NCBI GenBank assembly: GCA_902783895.1
Contig: CACZST010000034.1
Location: 23,748-87,747, forward strand
DNA: 64,000 nucleotides
Direction: 5' to 3'
Source of the DNA: an uncultured Erysipelotrichaceae bacterium
GTDB lineage: Bacteria; Bacillota_I; Bacilli_A; RF39; UBA660
Shown one piece after another: positions 16,474 through 63,200 of the stretch (its first letter is position 1; every line of letters begins with the position of its first letter). The position numbers and the translations under genes were made by a program. The notes under the pieces are model-generated. The model was not told the DNA's origin, searched no databases, and saw nothing but the letters and a program-made list of their open reading frames with translations.

Positions 16474-17595
16474 TTATTTTTTATTTTTTGTAGTTTTTCT
16501 CATTATGACAGCTGATCCAATTACACAAGCTATTCCAAGTCCTGCAATTATTATTGAACCAAATGCGGATGTGGATGGTACTTCTACTACCTGTCCATTG
16601 TCCACTTTTACTTCATCTTTCTTATTTTCTTCATTTTTTGGTTCTTCTTTGACTTCTTCCACATATTTTGAAACTGTATATGGGTTTGTTTCTGTGCCTT
16701 CTCCATTTAATGTAGTTTCAGAAGAAAGGTAGAACGCAGGACAAACACTTCGCTCATAGCGTGGGTAACTGTAGCCTAAGAAACCACCACTATAGACGCG
16801 GTACACATTGTATGAGTCTGATGATGCGTTAAGAGAAAGTGTCCATGAATTATTGTCTGAATATAAATAATTATGTGTTTCGCTATTATTATAGCATGAT
16901 GTATTATAGGCATATGCATTTACATTTGTACATTCACTATTTGTTGATGCTTTTACATAATCTGTCGCATTCATAAGTGCTATTTTACCATTCCATTTAT
17001 ATGATGATTCTTCTTTTATACTTTCCGATAAATTAGTTTGATTATATGTGATTGGTCCAATATTCCATGTTTTTTCTACTATTAAACTTTTTACAATATC
17101 ATTCAAACCATTGTAAAAATCATTGTTTAAATATGTATTTAAAGTTGCTTCTTTATCTGGCAAATTTTTAAGTGTTCCATTTGCTTCCCATGGCATTTGA
17201 GTTACTTTATTCCCATTTGCATCAAGTGTCGTTGTATTGTTTCCCCATGATTTACAACCATCTTCACTTGTACAATAATCTTCACTATTAGTAGAATATC
17301 TAGCATTTTTCGCATCCCATGCTATTTTTCCAAGAGTCTCCTGTTTTATTACTTTTATTGTTCCATCTTTTTCTACTGATATTATTCTATATAAATCATC
17401 ACCTAATTTAATATAGTTATTAGGGTTACCTCCCCTTTAAATATATCTTCCATCAATAGTGGAATCTGCATAAAGTCCATCTCCAGTTGTTACTGCATTT
17501 TTCTTTAGTATATCTGCTGCCCTCTCCATTGCACTTACTGGATAAAAAGATATACTTAAAATAAATATTGTTAATGTTAAAAATAATTTCTTCAT
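16474..17595 (-). pseudogene. surface-protein family paralog (same family as 61421..62548) inactivated by an in-frame TAA at 17437..17439 (Tyr codon in the intact paralogs)
   Basis: ATG at 17595 encodes MKKLFLTLTIFILSISFYPVSAMERAADILKKNAVTTGDGLYADSTIDGRYI-stop-RGGNPNNYIKLGDDLYRII. The stop is in the same frame as ORF 16474..17196. Paralog 61421..62548 reads YIYRGGNPNNY at this position. Confidence 0.75.
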
Positions 17596-17678
17596 ATATT
17601 TAATCCTCTCCTACTTTACTATAACCATTTTATCAAAAAAATTAATATTTTTTACGAATAATTTACTTGTATTAAAAC

Positions 17679-17978: not shown

Positions 17979-18007
17979 TTGACATTTTTTTAAACGTGTG
18001 CTATTAT
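17979..18007 (+). promoter_or_regulatory. sigma-A promoter driving the serS T-box leader (TTGACA-17-TATTAT)
   Basis: TTGACA at 17979-17984, 17 nt spacer, TATTAT at 18002-18007. Confidence 0.6.
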
Positions 18008-18009
18008 AA

Positions 18010-18215
18010 TTCTAATAAATCGAAGAAAAAGACTAGTAATATAAGTTAATGTATTAAAGAGAGTTAGTGGTTGGTGTGAACTAATATACATTTTTATATG
18101 AATCTACTTTGGAGAGAAGCTAATCACTTCCGGCCTAGCCGTTATTTTAATTAAGATCTATATTAGGATGGTACCGTAATTTATTTACTCCTATATTATA
18201 GGTCTTTTTATTTTC
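18010..18215 (+). promoter_or_regulatory. T-box riboswitch leader of serS, with terminator/antiterminator
   Basis: AGAGAG stem I motif (18058-18063). UCC Ser specifier candidate in cacTTCCggc. Conserved T-box sequence attaGGATGGTACCGtaa (18163-18179). Terminator hairpin cctat-atta-tagg followed by tcttttta. Confidence 0.75.
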
Positions 18216-28810: not shown

Positions 28811-29773
28811 TTATTCAGATATACTATATGGATTTGCTTCTGTACCTTCTCCGCATAATTTTATATCTGAGCTTAAATAGAATGATGGGTAAAAGCTTAT
28901 TAGACTACTTGCATTATTTTGTCTTATACTTGTTGTTGAAAACATGTACCATATTGCATCTGCAGCTGAATGACTAAATGGTGATAATAACCAGCTTTGC
29001 TTTGTGGACGTTAGATAGTTATGAGATTGACTATTGTTATAACATGCGGATGTACTCCTATATGCACCAGCACTAACACATGCGGAGTTATTACTTGCTT
29101 TTACATAATCTACGACACTAATTAAAGCTATTTTACCTTTCCACCTATATGCAGATGCTTCTTGCATATTTTGCGCAATACTTGACATATCATATCCAAC
29201 AGGACCGACATCCCAATATTTTTCTTCGATATATTTTTTTACGTTACTATCTAGACTATTATACCACTCATTATTTAAATATGTATTAAGTGTTGCTTCT
29301 TTATCTGGAATTTCTTTTAAAGCCTCTCCTATTTTTATTGGCATTTTTGTTACACTATTGCCGTTTGCGTCAAATGTTGTTGTTTTGCTCCCCCAGACTT
29401 TACAACCTTTTGCACTTGTTCCACAATATTCTGATGTCCTTGAGCTTGCCTTATCCCATGCTTGTCCGCTAACATAATCTTTCTTCATTACTTTTATAGT
29501 TCCATCATTTTCAAGTGATATTATTCTATAAAGGTCATTACCTAATTTAATATAATTTTCAGGGGTACCCCCTTTGAAAACATATCTACTTGTGTCGTTA
29601 GGGTCGATATATAAGCCCGAACCTGTTTTGGTTAATTTCTGCATTAATTTTTCACTTGGAGTTTCCGATTTACATACTATTTTACTTTTACCAGTTATTT
29701 TTACACTTGTACTGAAAGCAGCATAACCAATAGTCATTAAAGTTACAACTGCAAGTAAACTTATAAACATCAT
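28811..29773 (-). CDS. surface-protein family paralog lacking the C-terminal anchor; currently out of frame with an upstream leader ORF (ATG 29808) because of a poly-A(13) tract
   Basis: 320 aa ORF MMFISLLAVVTLMTIG...GDGLYID..NDLYRIISLENDGTIKV...LPDKEATLNTYLNNEWYNSL...KWKGKIALISVVDYVKAS...GEGTEANPYSISE. It ends before the VPxTS anchor seen in the paralogs. Confidence 0.7.
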   Translation of the reverse strand: MMFISLLAVVTLMTIGYAAFSTSVKITGKSKIVCKSETPSEKLMQKLTKTGSGLYIDPNDTSRYVFKGGTPENYIKLGNDLYRIISLENDGTIKVMKKDYVSGQAWDKASSRTSEYCGTSAKGCKVWGSKTTTFDANGNSVTKMPIKIGEALKEIPDKEATLNTYLNNEWYNSLDSNVKKYIEEKYWDVGPVGYDMSSIAQNMQEASAYRWKGKIALISVVDYVKASNNSACVSAGAYRSTSACYNNSQSHNYLTSTKQSWLLSPFSHSAADAIWYMFSTTSIRQNNASSLISFYPSFYLSSDIKLCGEGTEANPYSISE

Positions 29774-29782
29774 TGTTTTTTG

Positions 29783-29795
29783 TTTTTTTTTTTTT
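29783..29795 (-). repeat. homopolymeric A(13) tract (T13 on + strand) in the 5' coding leader of the surface-protein gene; candidate slipped-strand phase-variation switch
   Basis: ATG(29808) AGA AAG ATT C + A13 + C AAAAAA CAA TGA gives MRKIQKKKNKKQ-stop. With A14 or A11 it reads MRKIQKKK(K)QKT fused in frame to MMFISLLAVVTLMTIG, giving a complete signal peptide. Confidence 0.7.
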
Positions 29796-29833
29796 GAATC
29801 TTTCTCATATATTTCCTCGCTTATTATATTTAT

Positions 29834-48180: not shown

Positions 48181-48268
48181 AGGTTTTCCTCCTATTATTA
48201 CTATACCCATAATACTTGAAAAGTTAATTAGAAAATAGCAATTAGATATATAAAAAAAGATATCATTT

Positions 48269-49756
48269 TTATTTACTGATATCCTTCTTTTTAAATACTT
48301 TTAAATATAAGTATCCACTTACTGCAAGTAATATGACTGCACCTACTATTACAAATATTGATGTGAATAATGAAGTTGGTGGTACATCTACTATTTGGGT
48401 AATACTTGATGTTATATTATTTGAATTAGCAGATCCTCCCATATTTGATAAAGTATATGGACTGTTTTCGCTTCCTTCTCCACCAGTTATACTAATAGAT
48501 GAATTTAAATGAACAACTGGTCTTATTGAGAATGAATTATAATATACTGCACCAAAATCTTGGTAAACATATTGTGGGTTTAATCCTTGATTTGAGGCTG
48601 AATACACAAGTTCATTACTGTTATAAACTGGTGTGATTAATAAATAATTATAATCAGTAAATTTGTATGTCTCAGGTGGAATTAAATAATTTGATTTATC
48701 ACAATTATTTTTTAAGGTTGGGTATCTAAATTTTGCATATGTACCATATTTTTCACTTCCATCTACTAATTTGTCATCACTCCAACTATTAGCACATCCT
48801 CCCCAATTATCTTTTTGTGTGCATTCTCCGTTAGTATTAACTAATGTCATCGTTCCACATGTTTTTTCATCATTAGTTGCTTCAAGTACATCTGTTAATG
48901 TTGGCATAGCAACATTACCATTCCATGTATATTTACTTTCTTCTTCATTATTTTCTTTTATAATATTATTAATTTCTGTAAAATAACTATCATAAGTAGG
49001 TTTTAACTCCTCCATTTTTTGCTTTTCTTTTTCCATTTGAGATTTATAATATGTTGAATTAGTACCACTTGGATCATTTTCATAATTTTTTTTATTTGTC
49101 TCATAAAAATCTTTAGCACCCAAGTATCCTACCACTTTTTCTTCATATACTTTATCTTTTAAAGATACACCACCAATATTATAATTGTATTTTACGATTT
49201 GATTTTTGGCATTTTCTGATAGCTTTTTATAATAATCATTATTTAAATAATCATTAATATCTGAGTTATTTTCAACTTTACCTTTTAATTCAAACGTTTT
49301 GTCATATTGATCATAATCTAAGCTATTGGGCCCGCTATAGCCACTAAGACCATTTTCTGTTACACCTGCATAGACACCGTTACTGAAGCTATCTGTTTTA
49401 GCCCAGGCATTACATCCAAATTGGGCATAATCACAGTATCTATTCCCTGTTGGTTTTTGCTGATCAATGTCAAATGTTGCATTATTATCTAGGGTATTTG
49501 ATCTAATTATTTTTAATGTTCCATCTTTTTCGATGGCCATTACTCTCCAAAGTTCATTATTGAATTTGATATAGTTATTTGGATTTGCTCCTTTATAGAC
49601 ATATCTGCCTTCAGTTACTTCATCTTTGTAAAGTCCTTCACCTTCAGTTACTACTTTACTTTTTAAAGTTTCTGAAGCAGTACTTGCGGCGTTTACCTGT
49701 GATATCATAGTAAAAGGTATACTAAATAAGCTTAAAAATAATAAAAATTTTTTCAT
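48269..49756 (-). CDS. surface-protein family paralog (divergent middle) with DVPPTSL + TM + basic tail C-terminus
   Basis: 495 aa; signal peptide MKKFLLFLSLFSIPFTMISQVNA; GEGLYKD..GRYVYKGANPNNYIKFNNELWRV N-terminal block. Confidence 0.7.
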   Translation of the reverse strand: MKKFLLFLSLFSIPFTMISQVNAASTASETLKSKVVTEGEGLYKDEVTEGRYVYKGANPNNYIKFNNELWRVMAIEKDGTLKIIRSNTLDNNATFDIDQQKPTGNRYCDYAQFGCNAWAKTDSFSNGVYAGVTENGLSGYSGPNSLDYDQYDKTFELKGKVENNSDINDYLNNDYYKKLSENAKNQIVKYNYNIGGVSLKDKVYEEKVVGYLGAKDFYETNKKNYENDPSGTNSTYYKSQMEKEKQKMEELKPTYDSYFTEINNIIKENNEEESKYTWNGNVAMPTLTDVLEATNDEKTCGTMTLVNTNGECTQKDNWGGCANSWSDDKLVDGSEKYGTYAKFRYPTLKNNCDKSNYLIPPETYKFTDYNYLLITPVYNSNELVYSASNQGLNPQYVYQDFGAVYYNSFSIRPVVHLNSSISITGGEGSENSPYTLSNMGGSANSNNITSSITQIVDVPPTSLFTSIFVIVGAVILLAVSGYLYLKVFKKKDISK

Positions 49757-49820
49757 TTTTCTCCTCCTATTTTTACTATACCCATTTTAGCAAAAAAAAG
49801 TAATATTTTTGATGGATAAT

Positions 49821-61420: not shown

Positions 61421-62548
61421 TTAAATCCTTTTATTTTTTGTCATTTTTTTCGTAATTATTACAGCTAAAGATATAAATATAATTCCAATAGATGCGATTA
61501 TTATAGACATCTGAGCGGATGTGGATGGTACTTCTACTAATTGCCTGTTATCTATATCGACTTCATTATTATTTTCTTCATCTTTTGTTTCTTCAACATA
61601 TTTTGAAACTGTATATGGATTAGTCTCTGTACCTTCTCCATTTAGTGTAGTTTCAGAGGATAGGTAGAATGCGGGACGGACATACATATTAATCCATGTG
61701 TGTTGATAACCTAAATATCCTCGACCAGTTGTAATACTTGAATTATATCTATTTGCATTCTCGGAGTAGGAAGAAATCGTCCATTCACTATTCTTAGGAT
61801 ATAAATAATTATGCGTTTCACTATTATTGTAACACGATGAATTTCCATTGGCATAGTAATAATCTTTTATACTTATGCAAGCACTATTATTAGAACCTTT
61901 AATATAATCTATAGCGCTAATCAAAGCTACTTTACCTTTCCATTTATATGCTGTTTCTTCTTTTACACTTTCTTTTAAATCTTCTTGATTATAATTTATT
62001 ACTCCTACACCCCAATATTTTTCCTTAATGTATTCTTTAATATTATCACTTAATCCGTTATAAAAATCATTATTTAAATATGTATTTAATGTTGACTCCT
62101 TTTCTGGAAGATTCTTTAAGTTCCCTCCTATCTCCCATGACATTTGGATTACTTTGTTTCCACTCTCATCTAACATAGTCTCATTACTTCCCCAGACTTT
62201 GCAGCCAAGTGAACCAGTTGAATAGCAAAAATCATCACCAGCCTTCGATGGTCTTGAATCACCCTTGTCCCAAGGCGTTTCCCCAATACTATCTTGTTTT
62301 ACTACTTTTATAGTTCCATCTTTTTCTACTGATATTATTCTGTAAAGGTCATCACCTAATTTAATATAGTTATTTGGATTCCCACCCCTATAAATATATC
62401 TTCCATCTATAGTGGAATCTACATATAAACCATCTCCTGACGTTACTACATTTTTCTTTAAGATATCTGCAGTTTTTTCCATAGCTTTTACTGGATAAAA
62501 AGATATACTTAAAAGAATTACTGAAAGTGTAAAAAATAATTTTTTCAT
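61421..62548 (-). CDS. surface-protein family paralog (intact reference copy) with VEVPSTSA + TM + basic tail
   Basis: 375 aa; signal peptide MKKLFFTLSVILLSISFYPVKA; all conserved family blocks present. Confidence 0.75.
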   Translation of the reverse strand: MKKLFFTLSVILLSISFYPVKAMEKTADILKKNVVTSGDGLYVDSTIDGRYIYRGGNPNNYIKLGDDLYRIISVEKDGTIKVVKQDSIGETPWDKGDSRPSKAGDDFCYSTGSLGCKVWGSNETMLDESGNKVIQMSWEIGGNLKNLPEKESTLNTYLNNDFYNGLSDNIKEYIKEKYWGVGVINYNQEDLKESVKEETAYKWKGKVALISAIDYIKGSNNSACISIKDYYYANGNSSCYNNSETHNYLYPKNSEWTISSYSENANRYNSSITTGRGYLGYQHTWINMYVRPAFYLSSETTLNGEGTETNPYTVSKYVEETKDEENNNEVDIDNRQLVEVPSTSAQMSIIIASIGIIFISLAVIITKKMTKNKRI

Positions 62549-62587
62549 ATATTTAATCCTCTCCTACTTTACTATACCCATTTTATC

Positions 62588-62607
62588 AAAAAAAAAAAAA
62601 AAAAAAC
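62588..62607. repeat. A(20) on + strand, T(20) on the coding strand: a homopolymer in the promoter spacer of the surface-protein gene 61421..62548, replacing T8/T7 at the same position in the paralogous promoters
   Basis: Coding-strand context attacttg-T20-gataaaatgggtatagtaaagtaggagagg, versus attac-T8-gctaaaatgggtatagtaaaaataggaggag upstream of 49756 and T7 upstream of 17595. Confidence 0.7.
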
Positions 62608-62648
62608 AAGTAATATTTTTGATAAATAAATTTACTTGTTTATAACTA

Positions 62649-63200
62649 TTAAATATATATTTTACTATTTTTTTCTGGTCCCATTTTTGTATCTTTATCT
62701 TGCATATATTTTTCTATAACTACTGTTTTCCCTTCTTTTAGGGATTTTTGTACATCAATAACCCTTTGGTTTCTAGAACCTCGGAAATATATATTTAGAC
62801 TTCTTTCAGCTAATATGAATTTACCATCTATTAAAACATCAACGTGTTTTAATAGGTCTAACATTGGTTTTCTTTTTAGTAAGTCTTCATATGTAAATCC
62901 TGTGTAACACCAAACGGTAAGTCCAATTTCATGAGCATGTTTGGCGATTTCAGCGGATGCTTGCGGTTGGAAAAGTGGATCTCCTCCGGATAAAGTTATA
63001 CCATCTTGACCTTCTAATTTGTCAAGTTCTTTATTTACTTCATCTGTGTCGGTTAGAAATCCACCATTAAAATCCCAAGTCTCAGGGTTGTGACATCCGG
63101 GACATGCATGAGCACAGCCTTGAGTCCATATAACTGTTCTAATACCTTCACCATCAACTATACTATCAGGTTGAAGGGTACTAGCTAAACGAATTTTCAT
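62649..63200 (-). CDS. nrdG: anaerobic ribonucleoside-triphosphate reductase activating protein (radical SAM)
   Basis: 183 aa; CAHACPGC cluster motif; its ATG overlaps the TAA of the upstream glycyl-radical ORF (TAATG). Confidence 0.85.
   Translation of the reverse strand: MKIRLASTLQPDSIVDGEGIRTVIWTQGCAHACPGCHNPETWDFNGGFLTDTDEVNKELDKLEGQDGITLSGGDPLFQPQASAEIAKHAHEIGLTVWCYTGFTYEDLLKRKPMLDLLKHVDVLIDGKFILAERSLNIYFRGSRNQRVIDVQKSLKEGKTVVIEKYMQDKDTKMGPEKNSKIYI

What the first reader, a model, noticed from the sequence alone, without database searches (positions are those of the whole stretch)
62549..62640. T(20) homopolymer in the promoter spacer of a surface-protein paralog, versus T8 and T7 in the sister promoters
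The upstream regions of the paralogs at 62548, 49756 and 17595 are alignable (…attac-Tn-g(a/c)taaaatgg(g/t)tatagtaaa…aggag…ATG). The tract is T20 before 61421..62548 (A20 at 62588-62607 on the + strand), T8 before 48269..49756 and T7 before the pseudogene. The tract sits immediately upstream of the conserved TGGGTATAGT -10-like element. Length changes would alter -35/-10 spacing or UP-element phasing, giving graded or ON/OFF transcriptional phase variation.
Basis: seen in the sequence. Interest (0 to 1): 0.6.

Follow-up and report, generated by a model that had tools for sequence, protein, structure and literature searches.

The report
Slippery poly-T tract in surface-protein promoter
A run of 19 T's sits inside the promoter of a surface-protein gene in an uncultured gut bacterium; its length differs between samples, so it probably acts as a mutational dial on that gene's expression, a well-known bacterial trick seen here in a new lineage and gene family.

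Summary
The tract is real but is 19 bases long, not 20 (A19 at 62588..62606 on +, T19 on the coding strand). T8 (49792..49799) and T7 in the sister promoters are confirmed. It lies in a conserved ~100-nt cassette 5' of DUF6273 surface-protein paralogs. The cassette runs: AT-rich hairpin, ATCAAAAATATTAC, TTG, T-rich spacer, TG(A/C)TAAAAT, GGG, TATAGT, Shine-Dalgarno, ATG.

At four independent loci in related strains the spacer is an interrupted T-rich stretch of exactly 18 nt. That places TTGTTT 17 nt from an extended -10 (TGnTAAAAT), the same layout as a promoter positioned just upstream of a T-box leader in this window. Where the spacer is a pure homopolymer, its length differs between assemblies: T19/T18 at this locus, T16/T17 and T30 at two others. 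For two of these loci the downstream protein is identical.

Every homopolymer of 10 nt or more in the window and in 206 kb of related DNA belongs to this gene family.

Best reading: a slippage-prone promoter spacer giving graded or ON/OFF expression, probably also serving as the U-tail of the nrdG terminator. No read-level or transcript data exist. T7/T8 are a shorter, stable architecture, not slippage variants. This is a new member of a known kind (Mycoplasma vlp, H. pylori sabA).

The parts
62588..62606 (-). T19 homopolymer (A19 on the + strand). Under model A its first 3 T's complete the -35 hexamer, the other 16 lie in the spacer, and its last T supplies the T of the extended -10 TG.
   Evidence: The same place is T19 in L019, T18 in L020, and an 18-nt interrupted stretch (TTTTTAATTTTGCTTTTT) in L003-5.
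62604..62609 (-). Candidate -35 hexamer TTGTTT: the TTG of the conserved TTACTTG plus the first three T's of the tract.
   Evidence: TTG is invariant in all long-spacer cassettes. It lies exactly 17 nt from TAAAAT/TAAACT in the four interrupted alleles. Inferred; no transcription start site data.
62580..62587 (-). GA followed by TAAAAT. With the last T of the tract this gives the extended -10 TGaTAAAAT (model A).
   Evidence: The layout matches the serS T-box promoter in this window, TTGACA-17-TGcTATTAT.
62571..62579 (-). GGG followed by TATAGT.
   Evidence: Conserved in all cassettes as TATAGT or TATTGT. The 48180 paralog has TTAACT-16-TATAGT, which favours model B for that copy.
62549..62570 (-). 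Short leader with the Shine-Dalgarno sequence AGGAGAGG (62558..62565), 9 nt before the ATG.
62610..62623 (-). Conserved upstream block ATCAAAAATATTAC: an A-tract resembling an UP element, which also forms part of the loop and 3' arm of the hairpin.
   Evidence: Conserved in nine of the twelve aligned cassettes, including the T8 sister, and partly in the T7 sister, L016 and L026.
62604..62641 (-). AT-rich hairpin AAACAAGUAA...UUACUUGUUU, -8.0 to -8.3 kcal/mol, followed by the U-run. Terminator-like element starting 7 nt after the nrdG stop codon.
   Evidence: Present at the nrdG, uvrA and rsgA loci; its 5' arm is absent at the tmk and aspS loci.
61421..62548 (-). DUF6273 protein, 375 aa, with an N-terminal signal peptide, a C-terminal VEVPSTSA motif, a transmembrane segment and a basic tail.
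   Evidence: Pfam PF19789, 32.9 bits against a cutoff of 23.5. Translation. Family alignment.
62649..63200 (-). nrdG (anaerobic ribonucleotide reductase activase), the upstream gene whose 3' end abuts the cassette.
49792..49799 (-). T8 in the sister cassette of paralog 48269..49756. There is no TTG, and it is followed by GCTAAAATGGGTATAGT.
17635..17641 (-). T7 in the sister cassette of the pseudogene (ATG at 17595; TAA stop at codon 53, 17437..17439).
   Evidence: The intact ortholog in L031 has the same T7.

Best explanation
The T19 run is the T-rich spacer of a portable sigma-A-type promoter cassette that precedes DUF6273 surface-protein paralogs in an uncultured, low-GC (27%) gut Bacilli lineage carrying sporulation genes. 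In this lineage the spacer has become a pure homopolymer.

The cassette reads: A-tract (UP-like), -35 TTGTTT, spacer, extended -10 TGnTAAAAT, GGG, short leader with Shine-Dalgarno sequence, ATG. The common ancestral-type spacer segment is 18 nt, which gives the optimal 17-nt distance between -35 and -10. T19 gives 18 nt.

Because a pure 16-30-nt homopolymer slips during replication, single-base gains and losses move the promoter on and off its optimal spacing. That would give heritable but reversible, graded or ON/OFF expression of this surface protein, independently at each paralog that carries a pure tract. At this locus the same T-run, preceded by a 10-bp AT-rich hairpin, very probably also serves as the U-tail of the nrdDG terminator.

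Shown: the tract, the cassette conservation, the invariant 18-nt length of interrupted alleles, the length differences among pure alleles, and the exclusive association of long homopolymers with this gene family.

Inferred: which hexamers RNA polymerase uses, that slippage occurs at high frequency within populations, and that length changes alter expression.
For: 1. Tract and cassette.
2. Interrupted T-rich spacers are exactly 18 nt at four independent loci (nrdG-adjacent L003-5, uvrA-adjacent L017/18, rsgA-adjacent L037-42, DUF421-adjacent L016). There is no length variation across the 12 contigs that carry them.
3. Pure tracts differ in length:
   - this locus: T19 (window, L019) versus T18 (L020, protein identical to L019);
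   - aspS-adjacent locus: T16 (L034, L035) versus T17 (L036), identical protein;
   - tmk-adjacent locus: T30 (L026), with other contigs breaking inside the tract (L027-29).
4. In the 18-nt alleles TTGTTT lies 17 nt from TGnTAAAAT. This organism demonstrably uses that layout: TTGACA-17-TGcTATTAT ends 7 nt before the Rfam T-box leader start at 18014. TTGATT-17-TATAAT precedes another paralog (L030).
5. Every homopolymer of 10 nt or more in 206 kb of related loci is in this cassette. The only two in the window are this tract and an A13 in the 5' coding region of another paralog.
6. nrdG is 99.6% identical in DNA between strains, while the adjacent DUF6273 protein is only 66% identical. This is the pattern expected for a surface gene under diversifying pressure.
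7. Precedents: spacer indels switch vlp, maa2 and vmm (PMC2268961); the sabA T-tract acts as a rheostat (PMC4081817); an intergenic homopolymer controls R28 in S. pyogenes (PMC7098570).
Against: - No transcription start site, transcript or read-level data are available.
- Length differences of one base in 16-19-nt homopolymers between Illumina assemblies could be consensus errors. L020 begins only 16 nt upstream of the tract and carries two unusual substitutions there.
- Most contigs with identical neighbours were collapsed by the look-up tool, so the sample of alleles is small.
- An extended -10 promoter depends less on -35, so spacing changes might have only a modest effect.
- A second -10 candidate (TATAGT) is equally conserved. 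It fits the 48180 paralog better. Under it the tract would not set -35/-10 spacing.
- The consensus promoter scan calls nothing here.
- In M. agalactiae, a T-tract immediately upstream of the vpma -10 was shown to play no role in variation (PMC2268961).
- T7 and T8 cassettes precede intact genes, so a long spacer is not essential for the family.
Confidence: 0.55

Rival explanations
1. The T-run is primarily the U-tail of an intrinsic terminator for the nrdD-nrdG operon. Its length is irrelevant to expression of the downstream gene.
For: - A hairpin (AAACAAGUAA...UUACUUGUUU, -8.0 to -8.3 kcal/mol) starts 7 nt after the nrdG stop codon and runs directly into the T-run.
- No other terminator lies between nrdG and the next gene.
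- The same hairpin precedes the tract at the uvrA and rsgA loci.
Against: - The hairpin's stability is not significant against shuffled sequences (z = -1.5).
- The terminator scan does not call it, because it has too few G-C pairs and too large a loop.
- At the aspS locus a separate GC-containing terminator lies upstream and the hairpin's 5' arm is missing, yet the T16/T17 tract is present. The 5' arm is also missing at the tmk locus.
- A terminator tail needs about 8 U's. That explains neither 16-30 T's nor the invariant 18-nt length of interrupted alleles.
- This role is compatible with the promoter role rather than exclusive of it.
Confidence: 0.2
2. The tract is a neutral by-product of AT-rich drift in a T-rich spacer. 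It mutates in length but has no meaningful effect, because an extended -10 promoter (or TATAGT as -10) is insensitive to what lies upstream.
For: - TGn extended -10 elements reduce dependence on -35 (established knowledge).
- T7/T8 cassettes without the TTG precede apparently functional genes.
- The M. agalactiae vpma T-tract precedent shows a tract at a promoter can have no role (PMC2268961).
Against: - Homopolymers of 9 nt or more are otherwise almost absent from this genome: 19 runs of 8, one of 9, none of 10-12. Yet pure tracts arose at three or more independent paralog loci.
- Interrupted alleles keep exactly 18 nt despite sequence divergence, which shows that length is under constraint.
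- Observed nrdG- and aspS-locus lengths cluster at 16-19, around that value.
Confidence: 0.15
3. The conserved block ATGGGTATAGT, together with TATTAC/TTAC, is recognised by an alternative sigma factor or a dedicated regulator. The tract then sets the distance between two protein-binding sites rather than between sigma-A hexamers.
For: - The block is 18/18 identical between paralogs that share only 33% protein identity.
- It loosely resembles the -10 ATGTTATA of clostridial group-5 sigma promoters. This resemblance is recalled from memory and was not tested.
Against: - A canonical sigma-A reading fits without extra assumptions.
- No regulator gene is linked to the cassettes across the six genomic contexts seen.
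Confidence: 0.1

Closest known systems
Mycoplasma hyorhinis vlp promoters (also M. arthritidis maa2 and M. mycoides vmm)
   Same: - A multigene family of surface proteins, each gene with its own promoter.
- A homopolymer or simple repeat lies in the -35/-10 spacer, and insertions or deletions there turn transcription ON or OFF (PMC2268961; PMC10502178).
- Low-GC host. In the GTDB taxonomy the mycoplasmas fall within class Bacilli (my own knowledge).
   Different: - The host here has sporulation genes (YunB, CotE, SpoIIIAH), so it is presumably walled.
- The proteins are DUF6273 lectin-like proteins with a C-terminal anchor, not lipoproteins.
- Only some paralogs and strains carry a pure tract.
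- The promoter has an extended -10, so the effect may be graded.
- Switching has not been demonstrated.
Helicobacter pylori sabA T-tract rheostat
   Same: - An intergenic T-tract at or next to the -35 of an adhesin promoter, with A-rich UP-like sequence upstream.
- Length varies widely between strains (T5-T28) and tunes RNA polymerase binding in a multiphasic way.
- The same gene family also carries coding-region repeats that switch by frameshift (PMC4081817). This parallels the A13 in a paralog here.
   Different: - In sabA the tract lies upstream of -35 and acts through the axial alignment of UP elements.
- Here, under the preferred model, the tract is inside the -35/-10 spacer.
- Different phylum and a different protein family.
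Streptococcus pyogenes M28 intergenic homopolymer between Spy1336/R28 and Spy1337
   Same: A Firmicute in which one-nucleotide indels in an intergenic poly-T tract change transcript levels of a surface protein (PMC7098570).
   Different: That tract lies between divergent genes and acts together with a linked regulator. It is not a cassette repeated across a gene family.
Mycoplasma agalactiae vpma promoter T-tract (negative precedent)
   Same: A homopolymeric T-tract immediately upstream of the -10 of a surface-protein promoter.
   Different: It was shown experimentally not to generate variation; switching there is by Xer1-mediated inversion (PMC2268961). This shows that position alone does not prove function.

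Membership tests
Promoter-spacer simple-repeat phase variation (vlp type) | The repeat lies between the -35 and -10 hexamers of the gene's own promoter. | tested here: inconclusive
   Met by sequence under model A (TTGTTT, 18 nt, TGaTAAAAT), which is supported by the invariant 17-nt spacing in four interrupted alleles and by the in-window reference promoter. The transcription start site is unknown and TATAGT is an alternative -10.
Promoter-spacer simple-repeat phase variation (vlp type) | Tract length changes at high frequency within a clonal population. | not testable with these tools
   Only assembled contigs are available. Between-assembly differences are seen (T19/T18; T16/T17; T30), in two cases with identical downstream proteins, but not within-population heterogeneity.
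Promoter-spacer simple-repeat phase variation (vlp type) | Expression depends on tract length (ON at one length, OFF or reduced at others). | not testable with these tools
   No expression data.
Promoter-spacer simple-repeat phase variation (vlp type) | It controls surface-exposed proteins, typically a paralogous family with individual promoters. | tested here: met
   There are five DUF6273 paralogs in the window. They have a signal peptide and a C-terminal anchor. Four of the five window paralogs carry the -10/leader part of the cassette individually (three with the upstream ATATTA block), as do orthologs at six genomic contexts in related strains; the fifth (28811..29808) has a different, canonical promoter.
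T-tract rheostat next to -35 (sabA type) | T- or A-tract directly upstream of -35, with A-rich UP-like elements further upstream. | tested here: inconclusive
   The A-tract block AAAAATATTA is conserved upstream. Under model B the tract would cover the -35 region and separate the core promoter from this block. Under model A the tract is in the spacer instead.
Intrinsic (factor-independent) terminator | A stable G+C-rich stem-loop immediately followed by a U-run at the end of a transcription unit. | tested here: inconclusive
   The position and U-run are met. The stem is AT-rich (2 G-C pairs), -8.0 to -8.3 kcal/mol, z = -1.5 against shuffles, and the consensus scan does not call it.
Pfam DUF6273 (PF19789) | Score above the Pfam gathering threshold. 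| tested here: met
   32.9 bits against a cutoff of 23.5, E = 7e-8, residues 150-297. The literature describes the domain as C-type-lectin-like (PMC10743442). My AlphaFold model was too poor to confirm this (pLDDT 43).
Sortase-dependent LPXTG surface protein | LPXTG-type motif, then a hydrophobic segment and a basic tail; match to a curated model. | tested here: not met
   The hydrophobic segment and basic tail are present, but the motif is VPSTS, not LPXTG. The NCBIfam NF053819 hit scores 23.6 bits against a cutoff of 47.

The most novel reading that the evidence does not exclude
A family-wide contingency system in a spore-forming gut Bacilli lineage. A portable terminator-promoter cassette with a length-constrained 18-nt T-rich spacer is repeatedly 'purified' into a homopolymer at individual DUF6273 paralogs. 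Each such paralog gains its own mutational switch. Together with a coding-region poly-A frameshift switch in another paralog, and cassette replacement between strains, this would give combinatorial surface variation of lectin-like proteins. It would be the functional equivalent of the Mycoplasma Vlp system in a commensal Firmicute, and would capture contingency loci in the act of evolving from ordinary promoters.
Probability: 0.35. Interest if true: 0.6.

Novelty: new member of a known kind. Interest (0 to 1): 0.45.

Why it matters
Phase variation by simple repeats is documented mostly in pathogens such as Neisseria, Haemophilus, Helicobacter, Campylobacter and the mycoplasmas. If confirmed, this would show the same strategy in an uncultured commensal gut Firmicute, acting on a lectin-like surface-protein family (DUF6273) that is otherwise known as a target of diversity-generating retroelements in phages.

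The comparison of interrupted alleles (fixed at 18 nt) with pure alleles (variable length) of the same cassette is a natural experiment on how an ordinary promoter spacer becomes a contingency locus.

Practically, these tracts break metagenome assemblies, and they flag genes whose ON/OFF state varies between samples.

Tried and rejected
- **JGI metagenome pattern scan**: only three chance matches.
- **Two genome-contig scans**, with the protein and with the family alignment: no close relative. Strain comparison therefore rested on the look-up of encoding contigs, all 12 look-ups used.
- **Viral-contig pattern scan**: chance matches inside a phage coding sequence.
- **Logan contig ends at the tract** (L006-L010) first looked like evidence of heterogeneity. 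A Logan contig also starts right after the stable T8 (L033), and others break in the paralog-shared 3' end. I do not count the Logan contig ends at this locus as evidence.
- **Rfam**: nothing at the locus; the only hit is the serS T-box.
- **Consensus promoter/terminator scan**: no call at the locus.
- **AlphaFold model of the protein**: pLDDT 43, unusable, so no fold search was run.
- **PDB profile search**: no significant hit.
- **U-tract pairing with the Shine-Dalgarno sequence** in a read-through transcript: not better than shuffled sequence (z = -0.3).
- **Taxonomic naming** through RF-2 homologs: only 'Bacilli bacterium' MAG labels.
- **A gene split between L037 and L039**: a 4-nt deletion in an unrelated gene.

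Full report
**Observation.** The coding strand between the nrdG stop codon (62649) and the ATG at 62548 reads: TAA-TAGTTAT-AAACAAGTAAATTTATTTATCAAAAATATTACTTG-T19-GATAAAATGGGTATAGTAAAGTAGGAGAGGATTAAATAT-ATG. The run is 19 bases (A19 at 62588..62606 on the + strand; 62607 is C), not 20. T8 at 49792..49799 and T7 before the pseudogene ATG at 17595 are as described.

The window is 27% G+C. Its A/T run lengths fall from 102 runs of 7, to 19 of 8, to 1 of 9, and then there are only two outliers, of 13 and 19. A first-order Markov model expects 4e-5 A-runs of 19 or more. A second, independent assembly also has T19 here (L019).

**The gene and its family.**
- The downstream ORF (61421..62548, 375 aa) has a signal peptide, a Pfam DUF6273 domain (32.9 bits against a cutoff of 23.5), and a C-terminal VEVPSTSA motif followed by a hydrophobic segment and a basic tail.
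- That tail is invariant in the family. It is not LPXTG, and it scores below the NCBIfam cutoff for a sortase substrate.
- DUF6273 is described as C-type-lectin-like and as a target of diversity-generating retroelements in phage receptor-binding proteins (PMC10743442). My own structure model was too poor to check this.
- The window holds five paralogs: 62548, 49756, 48180, 29773/29808 and the pseudogene at 17595.
- Relatives exist only in uncultured MAGs labelled 'Bacilli bacterium'. The neighbourhoods carry sporulation genes.

**The cassette.** I fetched contigs that encode the window's own proteins or close homologs. The same roughly 100-nt 5' cassette turned up at six different genomic contexts: after nrdG, uvrA, rsgA, a DUF421 gene, tmk and aspS. 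Its conserved parts are:
- ATCAAAAATATTAC;
- TTG;
- a T-rich segment;
- G(A/C)TAAA(A/C)T;
- GGG (less conserved);
- TAT(A/T)GT;
- the Shine-Dalgarno sequence.

**The key comparison.**
- Where the T-rich segment is interrupted, it is exactly 18 nt at four independent loci. There is no length variation across the 12 contigs that carry these alleles.
  - TTTTTAATTTTGCTTTTT at the nrdG locus of another strain;
  - TTTTTTAGTTTGCTTTTT;
  - TTTTTTATTTATGTTTTT;
  - TTTTTACTTTTTATTTTT.
- Where it is a pure homopolymer, the length differs.
  - nrdG locus: T19 (window, L019) against T18 (L020, whose protein is identical to L019's).
  - aspS locus: T16 (L034, L035) against T17 (L036), with an identical protein.
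  - tmk locus: T30 (L026), while other contigs break inside the tract (L027-29).
- T7 is identical in a strain where the pseudogene's ortholog is intact (L031).

In 206 kb of related DNA, every homopolymer of 10 nt or more lies in this cassette.

**Which promoter.** With an 18-nt segment, TTGTTT lies 17 nt from TAAAAT. The last T of the tract plus the invariant G form the TG of an extended -10 (TGnTAAAAT). I call this model A.

This organism uses exactly that layout elsewhere:
- TTGACA (17979..17984), 17 nt, then TGcTATTAT (the hexamer at 18002..18007), ending 7 nt before the Rfam T-box leader start at 18014;
- TTGATT-17-TATAAT before the 29808 paralog.

Model A predicts a leader of about 25 nt. 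However, model B has no conserved -35 in the long-spacer cassettes, no TG at -15/-14, and would leave the Shine-Dalgarno sequence 2-3 nt from the 5' end of the transcript.

Under model A, T19 gives an 18-nt spacer and T18 the optimal 17, so slippage changes -35/-10 spacing directly, as in vlp. Under model B, slippage would shift the upstream A-tract block relative to the core promoter, as in sabA. The fixed 18-nt length of interrupted alleles shows a distance constraint between the two conserved blocks under either model.

**Terminator role.** At the nrdG, uvrA and rsgA loci a 10-bp AT-rich stem (AAACAAGUAA/UUACUUGUUU, about -7 to -8 kcal/mol) runs into the T-run. At the nrdG locus it is the only terminator-like element after nrdG, so a dual role as terminator tail and promoter spacer is likely.

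This is not the conserved reason for the tract. The hairpin's 5' arm is missing at the tmk and aspS loci. The aspS locus has its own upstream terminator. The hairpin's stability is not significant against shuffled sequences.

**The sister promoters.** The T8 and T7 cassettes lack the TTG and about 11 nt of spacer. Under model A they would rely on the extended -10 alone. They are a distinct, stable architecture, not slippage states of the T19 tract.

**Limits.**
- There are no reads, no transcripts and no start site.
- One-base differences between assemblies at 16-19-nt homopolymers can be consensus errors.
- L020 starts only 16 nt upstream of the tract.
- The look-up tool hides contigs whose neighbours are the same, so few alleles were seen.
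- Contig ends at the tract are not specific evidence.
- A T-tract upstream of a -10 can be functionally silent, as at M. agalactiae vpma (PMC2268961).

**Comparison and verdict.** The closest known systems are:
- the spacer repeats of Mycoplasma vlp, maa2 and vmm (PMC2268961; PMC10502178);
- the sabA T-tract rheostat (PMC4081817);
- the S. pyogenes R28 intergenic homopolymer (PMC7098570).

This is a new member of a known kind, in a new lineage and protein family. I put about 0.55 confidence on the full mechanism.

Noticed in passing
window 29783..29795 (T13 on +, A13 on the coding strand), paralog 28811..29808 (-): The second-longest homopolymer in the window lies in the 5' coding region of another DUF6273 paralog. 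From the ATG at 29808 (Shine-Dalgarno GAGGAAATAT) the frame ATG AGA AAG ATT C-A13-C hits a TGA stop. Related strains carry an in-frame 332-aa version, MRKIQKRKKQKTMMF... (P0125, 20 or more contigs), with C-A6-G-A7-C (L030). The window allele is one base shorter and is called only from an internal ATG with no Shine-Dalgarno sequence. It is a candidate frameshift OFF allele or switch.
   Followed up: partly
window 61421..62548 compared with L003:3652-4485: nrdG is 99.6% identical in DNA between the window and strain L003, but the adjacent DUF6273 protein is only 66% identical. The two proteins are nearly identical over the first 75 or so residues (signal peptide and N-terminal region) and then diverge. 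The gene looks like a cassette replaced or gene-converted between strains, with the promoter cassette at its 5' boundary.
   Followed up: partly
window 16495..17595 (-), stop at 17437..17439: The DUF6273 pseudogene is disabled by a single TAT-to-TAA change at codon 53. The ortholog in GCA_948496045.1 (P0014, 97.5% identical protein) is intact and has the same T7 promoter.
   Followed up: yes
window 17979..18195 (+): A T-box leader (Rfam RF00230, 96.3 bits) precedes serS. It has a textbook promoter, TTGACA-17-TGcTATTAT, ending 7 nt before the leader. I used it as this organism's reference promoter.
   Followed up: yes
window 61421..61540 (C-terminus of the 375-aa protein) and the family alignment A1: An invariant VxVPSTS motif is followed by a hydrophobic helix and a basic tail in all close family members. 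It is shaped like a sorting signal but is not LPXTG, and the match to a sortase-substrate model is sub-threshold. It may be a non-canonical anchoring signal.
   Followed up: partly
L026:1435-1464; starts of L027, L028 and L029: At the tmk-adjacent paralog (P0032) the tract is assembled as T30 and runs straight into AAAATGGG with no GAT. At least three other assemblies begin within or just after the tract. The true length there is uncertain and may exceed the assembler's k-mer size.
   Followed up: partly
window 48215..48270 (-): A clear intrinsic terminator (GGATATCA-loop-TGATATC followed by T7) separates paralog 49756 from paralog 48180. The 48180 copy keeps ATGGGTATAGTAA but has TTAACT-16-TATAGT and no T-tract.
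   Followed up: no
one search hit list (P0056, P0066, P0072 and others): Some DUF6273 relatives carry a prepilin-type N-terminal methylation domain (PF07963). Others, such as P0051 (MRRLRRNFRKNQSK...VGYAAFQT), have a charged N-terminus, a hydrophobic segment and a GYAAF motif that resembles SipW-type signal peptides (recalled from memory, not tested). The family therefore appears to use several export routes.
   Followed up: no
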